DNA from: Waddliaceae bacterium
GTDB taxonomy: Bacteria > Chlamydiota > Chlamydiia > Chlamydiales > SLFE01
Direction: 5' to 3'
Assembly: GCA_963783885.1 (NCBI GenBank)
Contig: CAWAPJ010000004.1
Location: forward strand, 1 to 43,552
Length of the DNA: 43,552 nt
The position numbers are program-made. Positions 30,001-33,000 of this stretch are shown here, piece by piece. How positions within the stretch are numbered: the stretch's first letter is position 1; the number at the start of each line of letters is the position of its first letter.

Positions 30001-33000
30001 TTGATTTGTTTCTGAAGTTCCGATGATTCCGCTTGTGAAAAAACCTTGCTTAGCGACTCGCGGTATCCGTCCTGAACCCGTTTCCCTTCAATATTTCTTA
30101 CCCATTTCAAAGTCAGCTGTTTCGCCGTGTCCGGCTGCATGATGGCCTCGATTTTGCTGCCTCCGGCAGCCCCCTTTTGCAAATAAGAGGCGATATTGTA
30201 GATTTTAAAGAAGAATTTTTTCCGGGTGGCTACTCCGGTTAGTGTCAGATCGTAATCCTTTCCGTTGTAAGAAAAGGAGACTTCCTTCGGAAACTTCATC
30301 CCTGTATCGCTGCTTTCCACAGTTTCTGCCGCAAGAACTTGCAGGCCTGCAAAACAAAGAAAAGCCGCAAACAACTTAATTCCAATGGATTTCATAATAC
30401 CCTCCCTTTTGTGTGATATCCTAGGTTTAGCAGAAAACGCCAAAATTGACAAAAGTTAAATTTGCATGTATATTATCCTCACAAGGAGTGACTTATGCCA
30501 AATTTTCTCGCAGTCGTCGAATGCGCCATCGAACATGAAGGGAAGTATTTGATGATTAGAAGACCCGAAGGGATACACGCCGGCGGGCTTCTCGCCTTTC
30601 CGGGAGGAAAAGTGGATTACGAAGACGGCTCCGGTCACCAAAATATACTCATCAACGCAGTCAAAAGAGAAGTTTTTGAGGAAATCGGCCTCGATTTGGT
30701 TGATCCCATTCAATTTGCGACAAGCTCCTATTTCATTGATACTTATCAGCAACATGTCCTCGACATCATCTTCTGCTGCAGACTCAAAAAAACCAAGATC
30801 GAAATCATCCCTTCCGAAAAGGAAGTCCCTGAGTATTTTTGGCTTTCTTCGCAGGAAATACTCGCTCATGATAAAGCCCCTGAATGGATTGAGCGCTATA
30901 TCTCTATTATAAACAACTTGCTTTCTTTATAATTTTCGCTGATAAAATTAATTGGCACGCCTTCAAATTAGCATAAATAACTGTATATCAATTTCTTGCA
31001 TCTTTTTTTTAAAAATATAGCTTATTTAATAAGTATTTTTTTATAAAAATAAAATTATTTTTATAGTATAATTATATTAAGTTAACATTTTAATTTAGGT
31101 TTATTATTATGAGCATAAACAACATAAATAACATGAAACAAAAATTATTGTCTGAAAATATCCAAGCAGGCAAAACAAGGGTCAAATCACCCAAAAAAAC
31201 AAAAAACCTATTTTTAAAAAAGGTTTCGAAATTCACAAAAAGCGGATGGGGCAAATCTCGAAAACTTGCAGGTCGAGTTTCGAAAGGGCTCACCTCTCAT
31301 GTCAAATCATCAGCCAATAAAACCACACATTCTTTCAGGCCGCTTGTAGAAGAAGAGCCTGAGGCTTCTGATGGCAATGCTCTTCCACATGAAAGTAAAG
31401 GTCCTCCGCCTCCAATACCACCGTTTGACTTGTCGAAATTTAAAGAACCCGCCCCAAAATCTTCGCCTCCCAAGCCGCCTCTATTTGACTGGTCAAAATC
31501 GAAAGAACCCCCTTCTAAACAGGTTATGCAAAAATACATTAAGGAAGAAATACATGCGAATACCACCCCGGGAACTCTCTTGAGATCGGATTTCAAACAT
31601 GGGGCAATGATCAAATTTGTCGAATCCCATGCGGCGGAATTTATATCACTGTCGCTTAAACCAACCATGGAAAATGCGATCAACCGTAAAAAAACAAGTC
31701 TTGAAGTGAATCCAATATTTCTTCAAAAGCCTATTAGTAAGAAAGGATTAAAAAAGAGACAGAAAAAATTGCTAAGAGCCGTATCGCAATATTTGGAAGA
31801 TGTGCATCAAGCAGCAAATCAACTTGATGACGAAACAAAATCCCTATTAAAATTCATTTATTATGAAGTGAAAGATAAAGAATACAGCAATATCGACAAC
31901 AGTCCCGAAGAAAAAGTAAAACGTGCAAAACAGCAGGTAGCCGCGCAGATCTTTTTAAGAACTCTCAATCCACGGCTTATCACATCAACAAAAGACCCCA
32001 AAGTTCAAAGAGAGTTGATTCTGATCACAAAAATTACGCAAAATGCAGCCAATCAAGTGAAATTCAATGAAGAGTATATGAGTTTTGCAAATGCTTCTTT
32101 AGAAAAATTTCAAGATAAAATCGATGAAATCATCCAGGCAGCAATTAGAACTTAACAGCTTTAAAGAGAGCATAGCCAAGATGCTCGTCTTGAAAAATTT
32201 TTTCAGTTTTTTTGAGATGGAGCAATCCGGTTATTCCCCATCGTCTTAAGGCTTTCCAAAATATCTTAAGCTGTCCGGAAATTCCCAATTCTTTTGCTGT
32301 CTGCTTCATCCACTCGGACATAAGCGCCGGCTTTTCAACGATAGTGATATCCGATAAGTGGGCGTTTCCAAGCAAATTCTTCCAGCCTTCCAAGGTTTCG
32401 GTCCGCTCCCCTTCCAATTCAAAGAGCTTTTGCTTAAGGTCCTCCGGTGTATTTTCCTTCCAATAAATATCTGCAATGCCGAGTGTTCCTCCCGGTTTTA
32501 AAACCCGTACCATTTCAGATAATGCTTTTTTTTGATCCATAAGCGACAGTGAGCATTCCGATATCACAACATCAAAAGATTCATCGGGATAGGGGAGGCT
32601 ATGGGCATCGGCTTTGGTGAAATCGATTTGAAGATTGCTTTTTTTAGCTTTTTCACGAGCTTGCTCAAGTAAATGATCCGAAAGGTCGATGCCAACAATG
32701 CAGCATCCAAATTTGCGTGCCAAAAAACAACTGGACTCACCGGAACCTGAAGCAACCTCTAGAACCTTATGATTTTCCTTTATGCCGCATAGCTTAGCAA
32801 GCTCAAGGGTGATTTCATTCCCTCCGGGATGGAATATATCCAGACCTATGTCGTCATTTTCCACAAGACTTTCTAGAGAAGGCTGATTCATCAATCTAAG
32901 GCTATCATATCCGAGACTTCCTTGACAAAAATAGATTATAAATTAATGACAAAGTTATAGAAAAATGCTTTTTTTAAACCTGTAAGACATTAAGTAACTG

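What a model noticed while it worked through the whole genome (the two positions that open the first line are those of the whole stretch)
31109..32155. A RasGAP-domain protein with intact arginine finger and FLR motif
A 348-aa protein with a low-complexity, proline-rich N-terminus carries a C-terminal RasGAP domain that keeps the arginine-finger, FLR and KxxQNxAN motifs. It would switch host Ras-family GTPases off, a class missing from the GEF/RhoGAP set already listed for this genome.
Evidence so far: Pfam RasGAP E 1e-5; PDB hits are p120GAP (4e-5) and neurofibromin, with the three motifs aligned; full ORF read in call 154; 85% identical ortholog in the sister species carries PF00616. Paper search listing showed no bacterial RasGAP paper.
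(Added by a program. Inside this text positions count along the whole contig: contig position 1 is position 1 of the stretch shown here. "Call 12" and the like, gene names such as g00115 and contig names such as C1 are that model's own, and its searches are not shown. The text may have been shortened before it was handed on; [...] marks where a part breaks off. The agent that wrote the report below was given it as the finding of a first reader that could run no searches.)

Follow-up and report, generated by a model that had tools for sequence, protein, structure and literature searches.

The report
Bacterial Ras off-switch in environmental chlamydiae
A chlamydia-like bacterium carries a compact copy of the eukaryotic enzyme domain that switches Ras signalling proteins off, with its catalytic residues intact, and related genes are scattered through environmental chlamydiae, which suggests these bacteria inject it to dampen their host cell's Ras signalling.

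Summary
Confirmed and extended. ORF 31109-32155 (+, 348 aa) carries a C-terminal RasGAP catalytic core. Its Pfam score is under the cut-off (23.5 vs 28.3 bits), but the predicted fold matches p120GAP (Z 23.8, 1.7 A over 202 residues) and a profile made only of chlamydial relatives hits NF1 and p120GAP at 1e-33. R159, L283-R284 and K308 align with NF1 R1276, L1390-R1391 and K1423; three other NF1 interface residues that eukaryotic RasGAPs conserve are changed. The gene sits among bacterial genes, is syntenic in a sister genome, and is under purifying selection (dN/dS 0.15). It is not a singleton: a profile finds relatives in 33 of 400 genomes of the phylum (0 of 29 in the family that holds the small, roughly 1.1-Mb genomes), and the finger arginine is kept in 46 of 53 domains at 16% median identity. 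The genome has a type III secretion export gate, four RasGEFs, a RhoGAP and a RhoGEF. Best reading: a type III effector that turns off a host Ras-subfamily GTPase; activity, secretion, host and substrate are untested. My paper searches found no description of a bacterial protein with the RasGAP fold.

The parts
31109..32155 (+). ORF, 348 aa, RasGAP-domain protein (P0001)
   Evidence: syntenic ortholog and dN/dS 0.21 over the whole gene
30959..31108 (.). Very AT-rich upstream region (14% G+C over 150 bases; lowest 0.1% among 1319 ORFs of the genome); role unknown
   Evidence: promoter-like sites there are no more than chance (7 found vs 4.3 +/- 2.3 over the scanned region)
31109..31186 (+). N-terminal residues 1-26, Asn/Ser-containing, no hydrophobic signal peptide; candidate type III secretion signal (inferred, weak for this protein alone)
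   Evidence: S+T+P+N fraction 0.32, 83rd-91st percentile of genome ORFs; highest 19-residue hydropathy of the protein 0.88
31166..31324 (+). Polybasic segment, residues 20-72 (net +17), with an amphipathic-helix pattern at 35-52; candidate anionic-membrane anchor (inferred)
   Evidence: hydrophobic moment 0.53 here, 0.64 in the ortholog; no background computed
31397..31519 (+). Proline-rich linker made of two copies of a 19-20 residue unit, kept in the ortholog (87% identical, dN/dS 0.12)
   Evidence: DNA repeats 31404-31459 and 31461-31519
31511..32152 (+). RasGAP catalytic core (GAPc), residues 135-348, without the flanking GAPex part
   Evidence: model residues 1-214 align with p120GAP 757-977 and NF1 1244-1462; dN/dS 0.15
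31583..31585 (+). Arg159, arginine finger (= NF1 R1276, p120GAP R789)
   Evidence: R in 46 of 53 chlamydial domains
31952..31960 (+). FLR motif, Phe282-Leu283-Arg284 (= NF1 F1389-L1390-R1391)
   Evidence: L in 50 and R in 44 of 53
32030..32053 (+). K308xxQ311N312xxN315 helix (= NF1 K1423, Q1426, N1430)
   Evidence: K in 40 (R in 6), Q in 46, N in 38 of 53

Best explanation
[quoted passage not shown] Inferred mechanism: the N-terminal residues route it through the injectisome; the basic amphipathic segment holds it on an anionic host membrane (plasma membrane, uptake cup or inclusion face); the C-terminal core binds a host Ras-subfamily GTPase in its GTP state, K308 contacting switch I and R284 steadying switch II, and inserts R159 into the active site so that GTP is hydrolysed and the switch turns off. 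With the four RasGEF-domain proteins of the same genome it would give the bacterium an on and an off control over host Ras, which in amoebae shapes phagocytic and macropinocytic cups. Shown: gene, fold, catalytic residues, selection, family, presence of the export gate and of RasGEFs. Inferred: secretion, membrane binding, catalysis, substrate, host, timing.
For: Fold: AlphaFold2 pLDDT 93.7, pTM 0.90; Foldseek p120GAP E 9.5e-8, TM 0.81-0.85; VIA-align Z 23.8, rmsd 1.7 A, 202 aligned, with NF1 21.8, SynGAP 20.4, IQGAP2 19.4, plexin B1 16.1 next. A profile of 19 chlamydial sequences, no eukaryote in it, hits NF1 at 9e-34 and p120GAP at 2e-33. Residues: NF1 numbering checked internally (1276, 1391, 1423) maps to R159, R284, K308; in NF1 loss of R1276 abolishes activity and R1391 or K1423 changes cut it by one to two orders of magnitude or more (passages of PMC7437355, and PMC11751910). 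In 53 chlamydial domains of 16% median identity the most conserved columns are L283 (50), Q311 (46), R159 (46), R284 (44), P288 (43), K308 (40), N315 (38); finger + FLR Arg + Lys/Arg are all present in 36 of 53 domains and 28 of 34 genomes. Selection: dN/dS 0.15 in the domain. Host context: SctU and SctV over their curated cut-offs, five nucleotide-transporter (TLC) genes, four RasGEFs over cut-off, one RhoGAP, one RhoGEF; the only Ras-family hit in the genome is IF-2. Family N-termini are rich in S/T/P/N (0.36 vs 0.215, 48 proteins vs 1319 ORFs), a trait of type III substrates (recalled). A metagenomic relative in the same starred clade fuses RasGEF and RasGAP in one chain (P0005).
Against: No activity, secretion or expression data. 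P0001 itself is under the Pfam cut-off. NF1 interface residues K1283, R1325 and K1436, mostly conserved in the 63 eukaryotic rows (K 46; K/R 59; K 57), are A166, F204 and N320 here, and T1286 is K169, so affinity or specificity may differ. The structure model was built on an alignment in which 15 of 25 rows were eukaryote-type RasGAPs, so it leans towards that fold. P0001's own N-terminus is only at the 83rd-91st percentile for S/T/P/N. 17 of 53 family domains lack at least one of the three key residues, so decay happens in this family. RasGEF pairing is not general: 16 of 33 RasGAP genomes show no RasGEF, 12 of them in families f8 and f43. The host is unknown.
Confidence: 0.66

Rival explanations
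1. It is an active, secreted GAP, but its real substrate is not classical Ras: Rap, Ral, Rheb or a lineage-specific GTPase of the protist host.
For: Peripheral interface residues differ from NF1 (A166, K169, F204, N320). The same fold includes SynGAP and plexins, which act on Rap (recalled). The family has diverged to 16% median identity with up to four paralogs a genome, which would suit several substrates.
Against: The finger, FLR and K1423-equivalent residues are those of Gln61-dependent RasGAPs; best structural matches are p120GAP and NF1, ahead of plexin; the protein has no C2 or second GAP half, which Rap-active members use (recalled).
Confidence: 0.17
2. It binds Ras-GTP (or another GTPase) as a decoy or scaffold without speeding hydrolysis, as IQGAP GAP-related domains do.
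For: IQGAP1/2 share the fold; 17 of 53 family domains have lost a key residue; several salt-bridge residues of NF1 are absent.
Against: P0001 keeps all three key residues. The finger arginine contributes little to binding (R1276A has a marginal effect on affinity; PMC7437355 passage), yet it is among the three most conserved columns of the family, which argues for selection on catalysis. The one IQGAP row in my alignment has Thr at that column (62 R, 1 T).
Confidence: 0.08
3. It is not exported and regulates a bacterial GTPase, or a GTPase that the bacterium itself secretes.
For: No secretion data; P0001's N-terminal composition is only mildly effector-like; the genome is 89% complete, so a small GTPase could be unassembled.
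Against: No Ras-like small GTPase found in this genome or at E <= 1e-8 in 6 of 6 genomes of the family; the gene comes with RasGEF, RhoGEF and RhoGAP domains; PF00616 rang in 0 of 14 control prokaryote genomes at E <= 0.01.
Confidence: 0.05
4. The gene is eukaryotic DNA mis-assembled or mis-binned into a bacterial genome, or a chance match in a helical protein.
For: Low G+C (38%; third positions 34%, 7th percentile of the genome) and a very AT-rich upstream region; sub-threshold Pfam score.
Against: No introns; bacterial neighbours (NUDIX, methyltransferase, AI-2E transporter); the same neighbourhood at 84-90% DNA identity on a 2.29-Mb contig of the sister genome; contigs of separate runs bridge the gene to both neighbours with no differences; nearest relatives in the tree are chlamydial; the genome's other GEF/GAP genes have the same low third-position G+C (0.29-0.38).
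Confidence: 0.01

Closest known systems
Eukaryotic RasGAPs: p120GAP/RASA1, neurofibromin (NF1), SynGAP (Pfam PF00616)
   Same: All-helical GAPc fold (Z 20-24, rmsd 1.7-2.2 A); arginine finger, FLR and K1423-type helix.
   Different: Bacterial, intron-free; only the GAPc core, no GAPex, C2, PH, SH2 or Sec14 domains; N-terminal basic and proline-rich extension of no known family; about 22% identity; A166, K169, F204 and N320 replace NF1 K1283, T1286, R1325 and K1436.
Amoebozoan RasGAPs (hits from Dracoamoeba, Stenamoeba, Balamuthia, Clydonella; Dictyostelium NF1/AxeB)
   Same: They are among the best eukaryotic sequence matches (E 6e-6 to 7e-4). Dictyostelium NF1 limits Ras activity at macropinocytic and phagocytic cups (PMC4374526, abstract and section 7), the process a chlamydia meets on entry.
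   Different: No eukaryotic row is sister to P0001 in the tree; no donor lineage can be named.
Legionella LepB (Rab1 GAP effector)
   Same: Secreted bacterial GAP with an arginine finger and a RasGAP-like cis-glutamine mechanism (PMC3674391 passages).
   Different: LepB has its own fold, acts on Rab1 and did not act on Ras; P0001 has the RasGAP fold itself.
SptP, and VirA/EspG bacterial GAP effectors
   Same: Type III effectors that switch host small GTPases off; SptP reverses the GEF SopE after entry (recalled).
   Different: They target Rac1/Cdc42 or Rab1 with convergent folds unrelated to host GAPs (PMC7542358 passage; PMC3674391 passages); P0001 is a homolog of the host enzyme.
Giant-virus RasGAP-fold proteins (Marseillevirus LCMAC101 A0A481YRG9; Tupanvirus ORFan A0A6N1NKY4)
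   Same: RasGAP fold in another intracellular resident of protists (E 2.4e-6, TM 0.79; E 0.057, TM 0.63).
   Different: Viral, 14-20% identical; not placed in my trees; relation to the chlamydial family unknown.
IQGAP GAP-related domain (pseudo-GAP) and plexin GAP domain
   Same: Same fold (Z 19.4 and 16.1).
   Different: IQGAP lacks the finger arginine (Thr in the one row aligned); plexin GAP is split and much larger; P0001 keeps the arginine and is a single uninterrupted core.

Membership tests
RasGAP domain family (PF00616) | Pfam gathering score of 28.3 bits | tested here: not met
   23.5 bits, E 5.6e-5; the 87% ortholog reaches 28.5. A threshold miss, not a difference of kind.
RasGAP domain family (PF00616) | All-helical GAPc fold | tested here: met
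   Searches (predicted model, alignment included eukaryotic RasGAPs; bacteria-only profile) and one search support it separately
RasGAP domain family (PF00616) | Arginine finger (NF1 R1276 / p120GAP R789) | tested here: met
   R159
RasGAP domain family (PF00616) | FLR motif (NF1 R1391 / p120GAP R903) | tested here: met
   F282-L283-R284
RasGAP domain family (PF00616) | Switch I-binding lysine helix (NF1 K1423, Q1426, N1430) | tested here: met
   K308, Q311, N315
RasGAP domain family (PF00616) | Further NF1-KRAS polar contacts (K1283, T1286, R1325, K1419, K1436) | tested here: not met
   A166, K169, F204, I304, N320. K1419 and T1286 vary among eukaryotic rows too; K1283, R1325 and K1436 mostly do not. 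Alignment-based, loop positions less certain.
RasGAP domain family (PF00616) | Accelerates GTP hydrolysis by a Ras-subfamily GTPase | not testable with these tools
   needs an assay
Type III secreted effectors of chlamydiae | Genome encodes an injectisome export apparatus | tested here: met
   SctU and SctV over curated cut-offs, adjacent on contig C1; other components not checked
Type III secreted effectors of chlamydiae | Polar, S/T/P/N-rich N-terminus without signal peptide or membrane span | tested here: inconclusive
   family strongly enriched, P0001 alone 83rd-91st percentile; no hydrophobic stretch; home-made composition measure, not a trained predictor
Type III secreted effectors of chlamydiae | Demonstrated translocation into host cells | not testable with these tools
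   uncultured organism
IQGAP-type pseudo-GAP | Finger arginine replaced | tested here: not met
   R159 present
LepB / SptP / VirA-EspG convergent bacterial GAPs | Non-RasGAP fold | tested here: not met
   the model matches the RasGAP fold over its whole length at Z 23.8

The most novel reading that the evidence does not exclude
Environmental chlamydiae hold an old, so far undescribed bacterial clade of true RasGAP-fold effectors, taken once (perhaps twice) from a protist, cut down to the catalytic core, given type III-style N-termini, then duplicated and lost by lineage; in several families they work with RasGEF effectors (in one relative fused into a single chain) as an on/off control of host Ras at the feeding cup. 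They would be the first bacterial GAPs that are homologs of NF1/p120GAP and the first bacterial effectors that switch Ras off by speeding its GTP hydrolysis, as far as my searches reach.
Probability: 0.5. Interest if true: 0.85.

Novelty: new variant of a known kind. Interest (0 to 1): 0.74.

Why it matters
The bacterial GAP effectors I could find described (SptP, LepB, VirA/EspG) hit Rho or Rab GTPases with convergent folds. A bacterial family built on the host's own RasGAP fold, found in about 8% of sampled genomes of the phylum and mostly below Pfam's threshold (10 of 46 locus ORFs scanned pass it), points to Ras signalling as a common target of environmental chlamydiae, fits the known role of Ras and NF1 in amoebal feeding, and gives a directly testable handle on how these symbionts enter and settle in phagotrophic hosts. 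It also supplies some fifty compact, very divergent natural RasGAP cores, useful for asking which residues are needed for catalysis and which set substrate choice.

Tried and rejected
Word-based protein search with P0001 found only the ortholog; a 'longer' search with the bacterial profile gave 3 hits, two of them family members and one IQGAP2, so neither measures range outside the phylum. DNA-pattern scans found no confirmed relative in JGI metagenomes or IMG/VR; tblastn of one family domain found none in PLSDB plasmids; these are insensitive at this divergence. Three pattern scans of GTDB genomes could not start because the alignments were too divergent. Five of the 28 matches of the Pfam scan (L020, L022, L023, L024, L026) were rejected as housekeeping proteins (Lon-type protease, metal-binding lipoprotein, ATP synthase delta, topoisomerase, His-tRNA ligase, named by recall from the sequences; at most 13.3 bits on the eukaryotic profile). 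A single-sequence model of a divergent member (L053) failed (pLDDT 46) and says nothing; language-model features place it with RasGAPs (0.95). No paralog of P0001 in its own genome and no relative of its N-terminal 134 residues beyond the ortholog. No RNA holder was listed among public runs, which is no evidence on expression. Promoter and terminator scans gave chance levels; no tRNA in the window; Sec7 not found, with no positive control ringing. An SH3-like look in the N-termini of the two G368 proteins was not supported.
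Full report
Observation. The ORF lies at 31109-32155 on the + strand and encodes 348 residues. 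Pfam gives one family, RasGAP, at E 5.6e-5 and 23.5 bits, under the 28.3 cut-off. Against solved structures the best sequence hits are p120GAP (1.1e-4) and neurofibromin (9.7e-4). As a chance control, a human NF1 GAP-domain fragment scores 27.1 bits on residues 135-348 and at most 8.3 on 1000 shuffles of them. The N-terminal 134 residues are a basic stretch (20-72, net +17), an acidic stretch (73-96, net -5) and a proline-rich two-copy repeat (about 97-136); there is no hydrophobic segment (highest 19-residue hydropathy 0.88).

Organism and authenticity. The window is contig C4 of a 2.16-Mb, 46-contig, 89%-complete genome. A record carrying the 85%-identical ortholog is titled as a Waddliaceae metagenome-assembled genome, so this is an environmental chlamydia; the genome has adjacent SctU and SctV genes over their curated cut-offs and five TLC nucleotide-transporter genes, as expected of an intracellular chlamydia (recalled). 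The neighbours are ordinary bacterial genes, and about 11 kb around the gene align with the sister genome at 84-90% identity. Contigs from four public DNA runs (two salt-marsh studies, one soil study; 4 of the 12 runs listed were laid) match at 99% or better for 35 of 37 records; one spans the end of the upstream NUDIX gene and most of the ORF, another the ORF end and the downstream gene, with no differences. One of these runs may be the source of the window. A simple codon count on the one ortholog pair gives dN/dS 0.15 for the domain (13 non-synonymous, 20 synonymous changes), 0.12 for the proline repeat, 0.27 for residues 1-96 and 0.18 for the neighbouring methyltransferase.

Fold and catalytic residues. 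AlphaFold2 on residues 135-348 gave pLDDT 93.7 and pTM 0.90; 15 of the 25 alignment rows were eukaryote-type RasGAPs, so the model leans on them. Foldseek's matches with E <= 0.001 shown are all RasGAP-family chains, and VIA-align gives p120GAP Z 23.8 (1.7 A, 202 residues, chain range 757-977), NF1 21.8, SynGAP 20.4, IQGAP2 19.4, plexin B1 16.1, a Toxoplasma pre-conoid ring protein 10.5, then a drop to 6.2. The match covers the minimal catalytic part (GAPc) only; the terms GAPc and GAPex are from PMC7437355 (passages). Independently of the model, a profile of 19 chlamydial sequences hits NF1 at 9e-34 and p120GAP at 2e-33. Numbering anchored on the NF1 finger arginine reproduces R1391 and K1423 and maps R1276, L1390, R1391, K1423, Q1426, N1430 and E1437 onto R159, L283, R284, K308, Q311, N315 and E321. 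Passages of PMC7437355 and PMC11751910 state that R1276 mutation abolishes or cuts activity 500- to 8000-fold, R1391 changes 45- to 400-fold and K1423 changes 200- to 400-fold. Against this, NF1 K1283, T1286, R1325, K1419 and K1436, which also contact KRAS, are A166, K169, F204, I304 and N320 here; three of them (K1283, R1325, K1436) are well kept among the 63 eukaryotic rows.

A family, not a singleton. PF00616 over 400 scored genomes of the phylum matched 22 at E <= 0.01, 11 over the cut-off, and 0 of 14 control genomes; five of its 28 matches were housekeeping false positives. The chlamydial profile matched 33 of the 400 at E <= 1e-4 (15 of them had contributed rows to the profile, 18 were new), in families f1 (4 of 4 besides the own genome), f31 (6 of 46), f8 (10 of 90), f3 (4 of 8), f43 (3 of 35), f37 (2 of 6) and three others, and 0 of 29 in f35, the family with the roughly 1.1-Mb genomes (one genome could not be scored; absence means not found in those searched). 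From the loci I collected 52 ORFs in 34 genomes, up to four a genome; the domain ends within 40 residues of the C-terminus in 44 of 52 and follows an extension of at least 100 residues in 49 of 52. Of 46 of these ORFs scanned against Pfam, 17 hit RasGAP at E <= 0.001 and 10 pass the cut-off; one Pfam-negative member is placed with RasGAPs by language-model features (0.95). In 53 aligned domains (one G344 ORF was lost to a duplicate name) of 16% median identity, the most conserved columns are the functional ones: L283 50, R159 46, Q311 46, R284 44, P288 43, K308 40, N315 38; the three key residues are all present in 36 of 53 domains and in 28 of 34 genomes. Selection by profile favours such conservation somewhat, but the finger arginine adds little to binding, so its retention points to catalysis.

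Origin. A search of 1.84 billion representatives returned 24 proteins: the ortholog, five unplaced metagenomic proteins, one low-complexity false hit (P0009) and 17 eukaryote-type RasGAPs, those with names coming from Amoebozoa and a collodictyonid. In the careful tree (71 of 123 domain rows; 52 partial, near-duplicate or very long rows left out) one starred branch (97/83) holds 33 of 36 chlamydial rows and all 6 unplaced rows and no eukaryote; P0001 groups (100/90) with a same-family chlamydial protein and three metagenomic ones; f8 and f43 proteins form their own starred group (98/95); two G368 proteins fall among eukaryotes (92/95, not starred). An AU test does not reject holding all eukaryotic rows on one side (p 0.32). 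So one old acquisition with duplication and loss is allowed, a second is possible, and long branches make both unsure. The tree has no root; transfer from eukaryote to bacterium is inferred from the distribution. Genomes outside the phylum could not be searched, so restriction to chlamydiae is not shown; the origin of P0011 and P0003 is unknown. The fold also occurs in giant viruses (Marseillevirus LCMAC101 E 2.4e-6; Tupanvirus ORFan TM 0.63).

How it most likely works. The genome has no detected Ras-like GTPase of its own (the single PF00071 hit is IF-2; none at E <= 1e-8 in 6 of 6 family genomes) but has four RasGEF-domain genes over cut-off, a RhoGAP and a RhoGEF. The family's first 25 residues are richer in S/T/P/N than the genome's ORFs (0.36 vs 0.215) and poorer in hydrophobic residues (0.22 vs 0.33) (48 proteins vs 1319 ORFs; kin are not independent), as is typical of type III substrates (recalled); P0001 alone is only mildly so. 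I infer export through the injectisome, docking of the basic amphipathic segment (residues 35-52) on an anionic host membrane, and arginine-finger catalysis on a host Ras-subfamily GTPase. In Dictyostelium, NF1 limits Ras and PI3K activity at macropinocytic and phagocytic cups (PMC4374526, abstract and section 7), so a plausible use is to quench the Ras patch after uptake or to tune host feeding. RasGEF domains occur in 62 of the 400 genomes; 17 of 33 RasGAP genomes have one against 45 of the other 367, but only 1 of 13 in families f8 and f43, so pairing is lineage-bound and no statistical test is claimed. The RasGEF-RasGAP fusion in P0005 supports a shared target class. The host is unknown; a soil or marsh protist is a guess from habitat.

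What is known. Seven full-text searches listed no paper on a bacterial RasGAP-fold protein; for most hits I saw only listings and abstract openings. In PMC11077975 the one RasGAP mention is a reference title (passages). PMC3674391 (passages) shows that LepB mimics the RasGAP mechanism with a different fold and does not act on Ras; PMC7542358 (passages) describes SptP as convergent. A term search of PMC5451489 found nothing in the main text; the single supplementary file held for PMC9816063 had no hit; PMC6520448 was seen as abstract only and not used. A genus-wide Legionella domain survey that I recall was not held, subscription papers and preprint supplements were not searchable, and automated PF00616 labels already sit on some of these proteins, so the domain may be listed in tables I could not see.

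Verdict. A real, selected, bacterial RasGAP-fold gene with intact catalytic residues, one member of a scattered chlamydial family: a new variant of a known kind. Fold assignment about 0.97; active GAP on some host Ras-subfamily GTPase about 0.8; the full model (type III effector acting on host Ras) about 0.66.

Noticed in passing
P0005 (1232 aa, unplaced metagenomic protein): RasGEF domain (residues 184-324) and RasGAP domain (583-756) in one chain; it groups with the chlamydial proteins. An activator and an inactivator of the same GTPase class fused together.
   Followed up: partly
400 genomes of the phylum: RasGEF (PF00617) domains in 62 of 400 genomes, up to six a genome, 25 of 46 in family f31, 0 of 29 in f35 and 0 of 14 controls: a second, larger Ras-directed family.
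   Followed up: partly
G000:C1:74388-76565, C17:44937-47657, C2:108184-110682, C28:8655-9974, C28:64195-65367, C43:56749-60471: Four RasGEF, one RhoGAP and one RhoGEF gene in the own genome, all with low third-position G+C (0.29-0.38 against a median of 0.50) like the RasGAP gene.
   Followed up: partly
P0003, P0011, L016:808-2448, L032:688-2406: Proteins with two tandem RasGAP domains; in L016 both copies and in L032 the second copy have lost key residues, in P0003 the first has lost the FLR motif.
   Followed up: partly
G226:C6, G276:C38, G277:C1, G344:C1, G001:C4 (about 2.24 Mb): Pairs of family genes lie next to each other, as from local duplication.
   Followed up: no
L005:1168-1878 (G003:C30, at a contig end): A family ORF that begins after the finger loop, so it lacks the arginine finger; it may be truncated or broken, or an assembly-edge effect.
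   Followed up: no
BFVD entries A0A481YRG9 and A0A6N1NKY4; PDB 9ya0 chain AA: RasGAP fold in a Marseillevirus protein and an unannotated Tupanvirus ORFan, and a Z 10.5 match (4.2 A, 186 residues) in a Toxoplasma pre-conoid ring protein, which is under the level trusted for helical proteins.
   Followed up: no
L036:4651-5856: The sister genome has a 401-aa gene, with no NCBIfam match, between the NUDIX and RasGAP genes; the window lacks it. Repeat-like helical pattern by eye.
   Followed up: no
window 30959-31108: The 150 bases upstream of the gene are 14% G+C, among the lowest 0.1% of the genome's ORFs; possibly a regulatory region of a developmentally timed gene.
   Followed up: partly
window 38449-42898: Run of three minus-strand genes: an 804-aa protein with RHS/YD repeats, collagen repeats and a BclA-like C-terminus, a 307-aa collagen/BclA-like protein, and a Legionella MOMP-like porin: a possible surface or adhesin cluster.
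   Followed up: no
window 24494-28496: Alpha/beta hydrolase, patatin-like phospholipase, sulfotransferase and phosphosulfolactate synthase (ComA) genes close together; ComA is intact here while the sister's ORF ends at 185 aa.
   Followed up: no
window 1331-2170 and 17586-18530; 3791-7189: Two DDE transposase genes; a DinB-type polymerase, an FMN reductase and a PolX-PHP polymerase in a row.
   Followed up: no
window 7266-7736, 8648-9514, 9517-11415, 15730-16809: ORFs with no confident family; 9517-11415 has a weak C-terminal beta-propeller hit (E 2.3e-5, under cut-off). 7266-7736 was not scanned.
   Followed up: no
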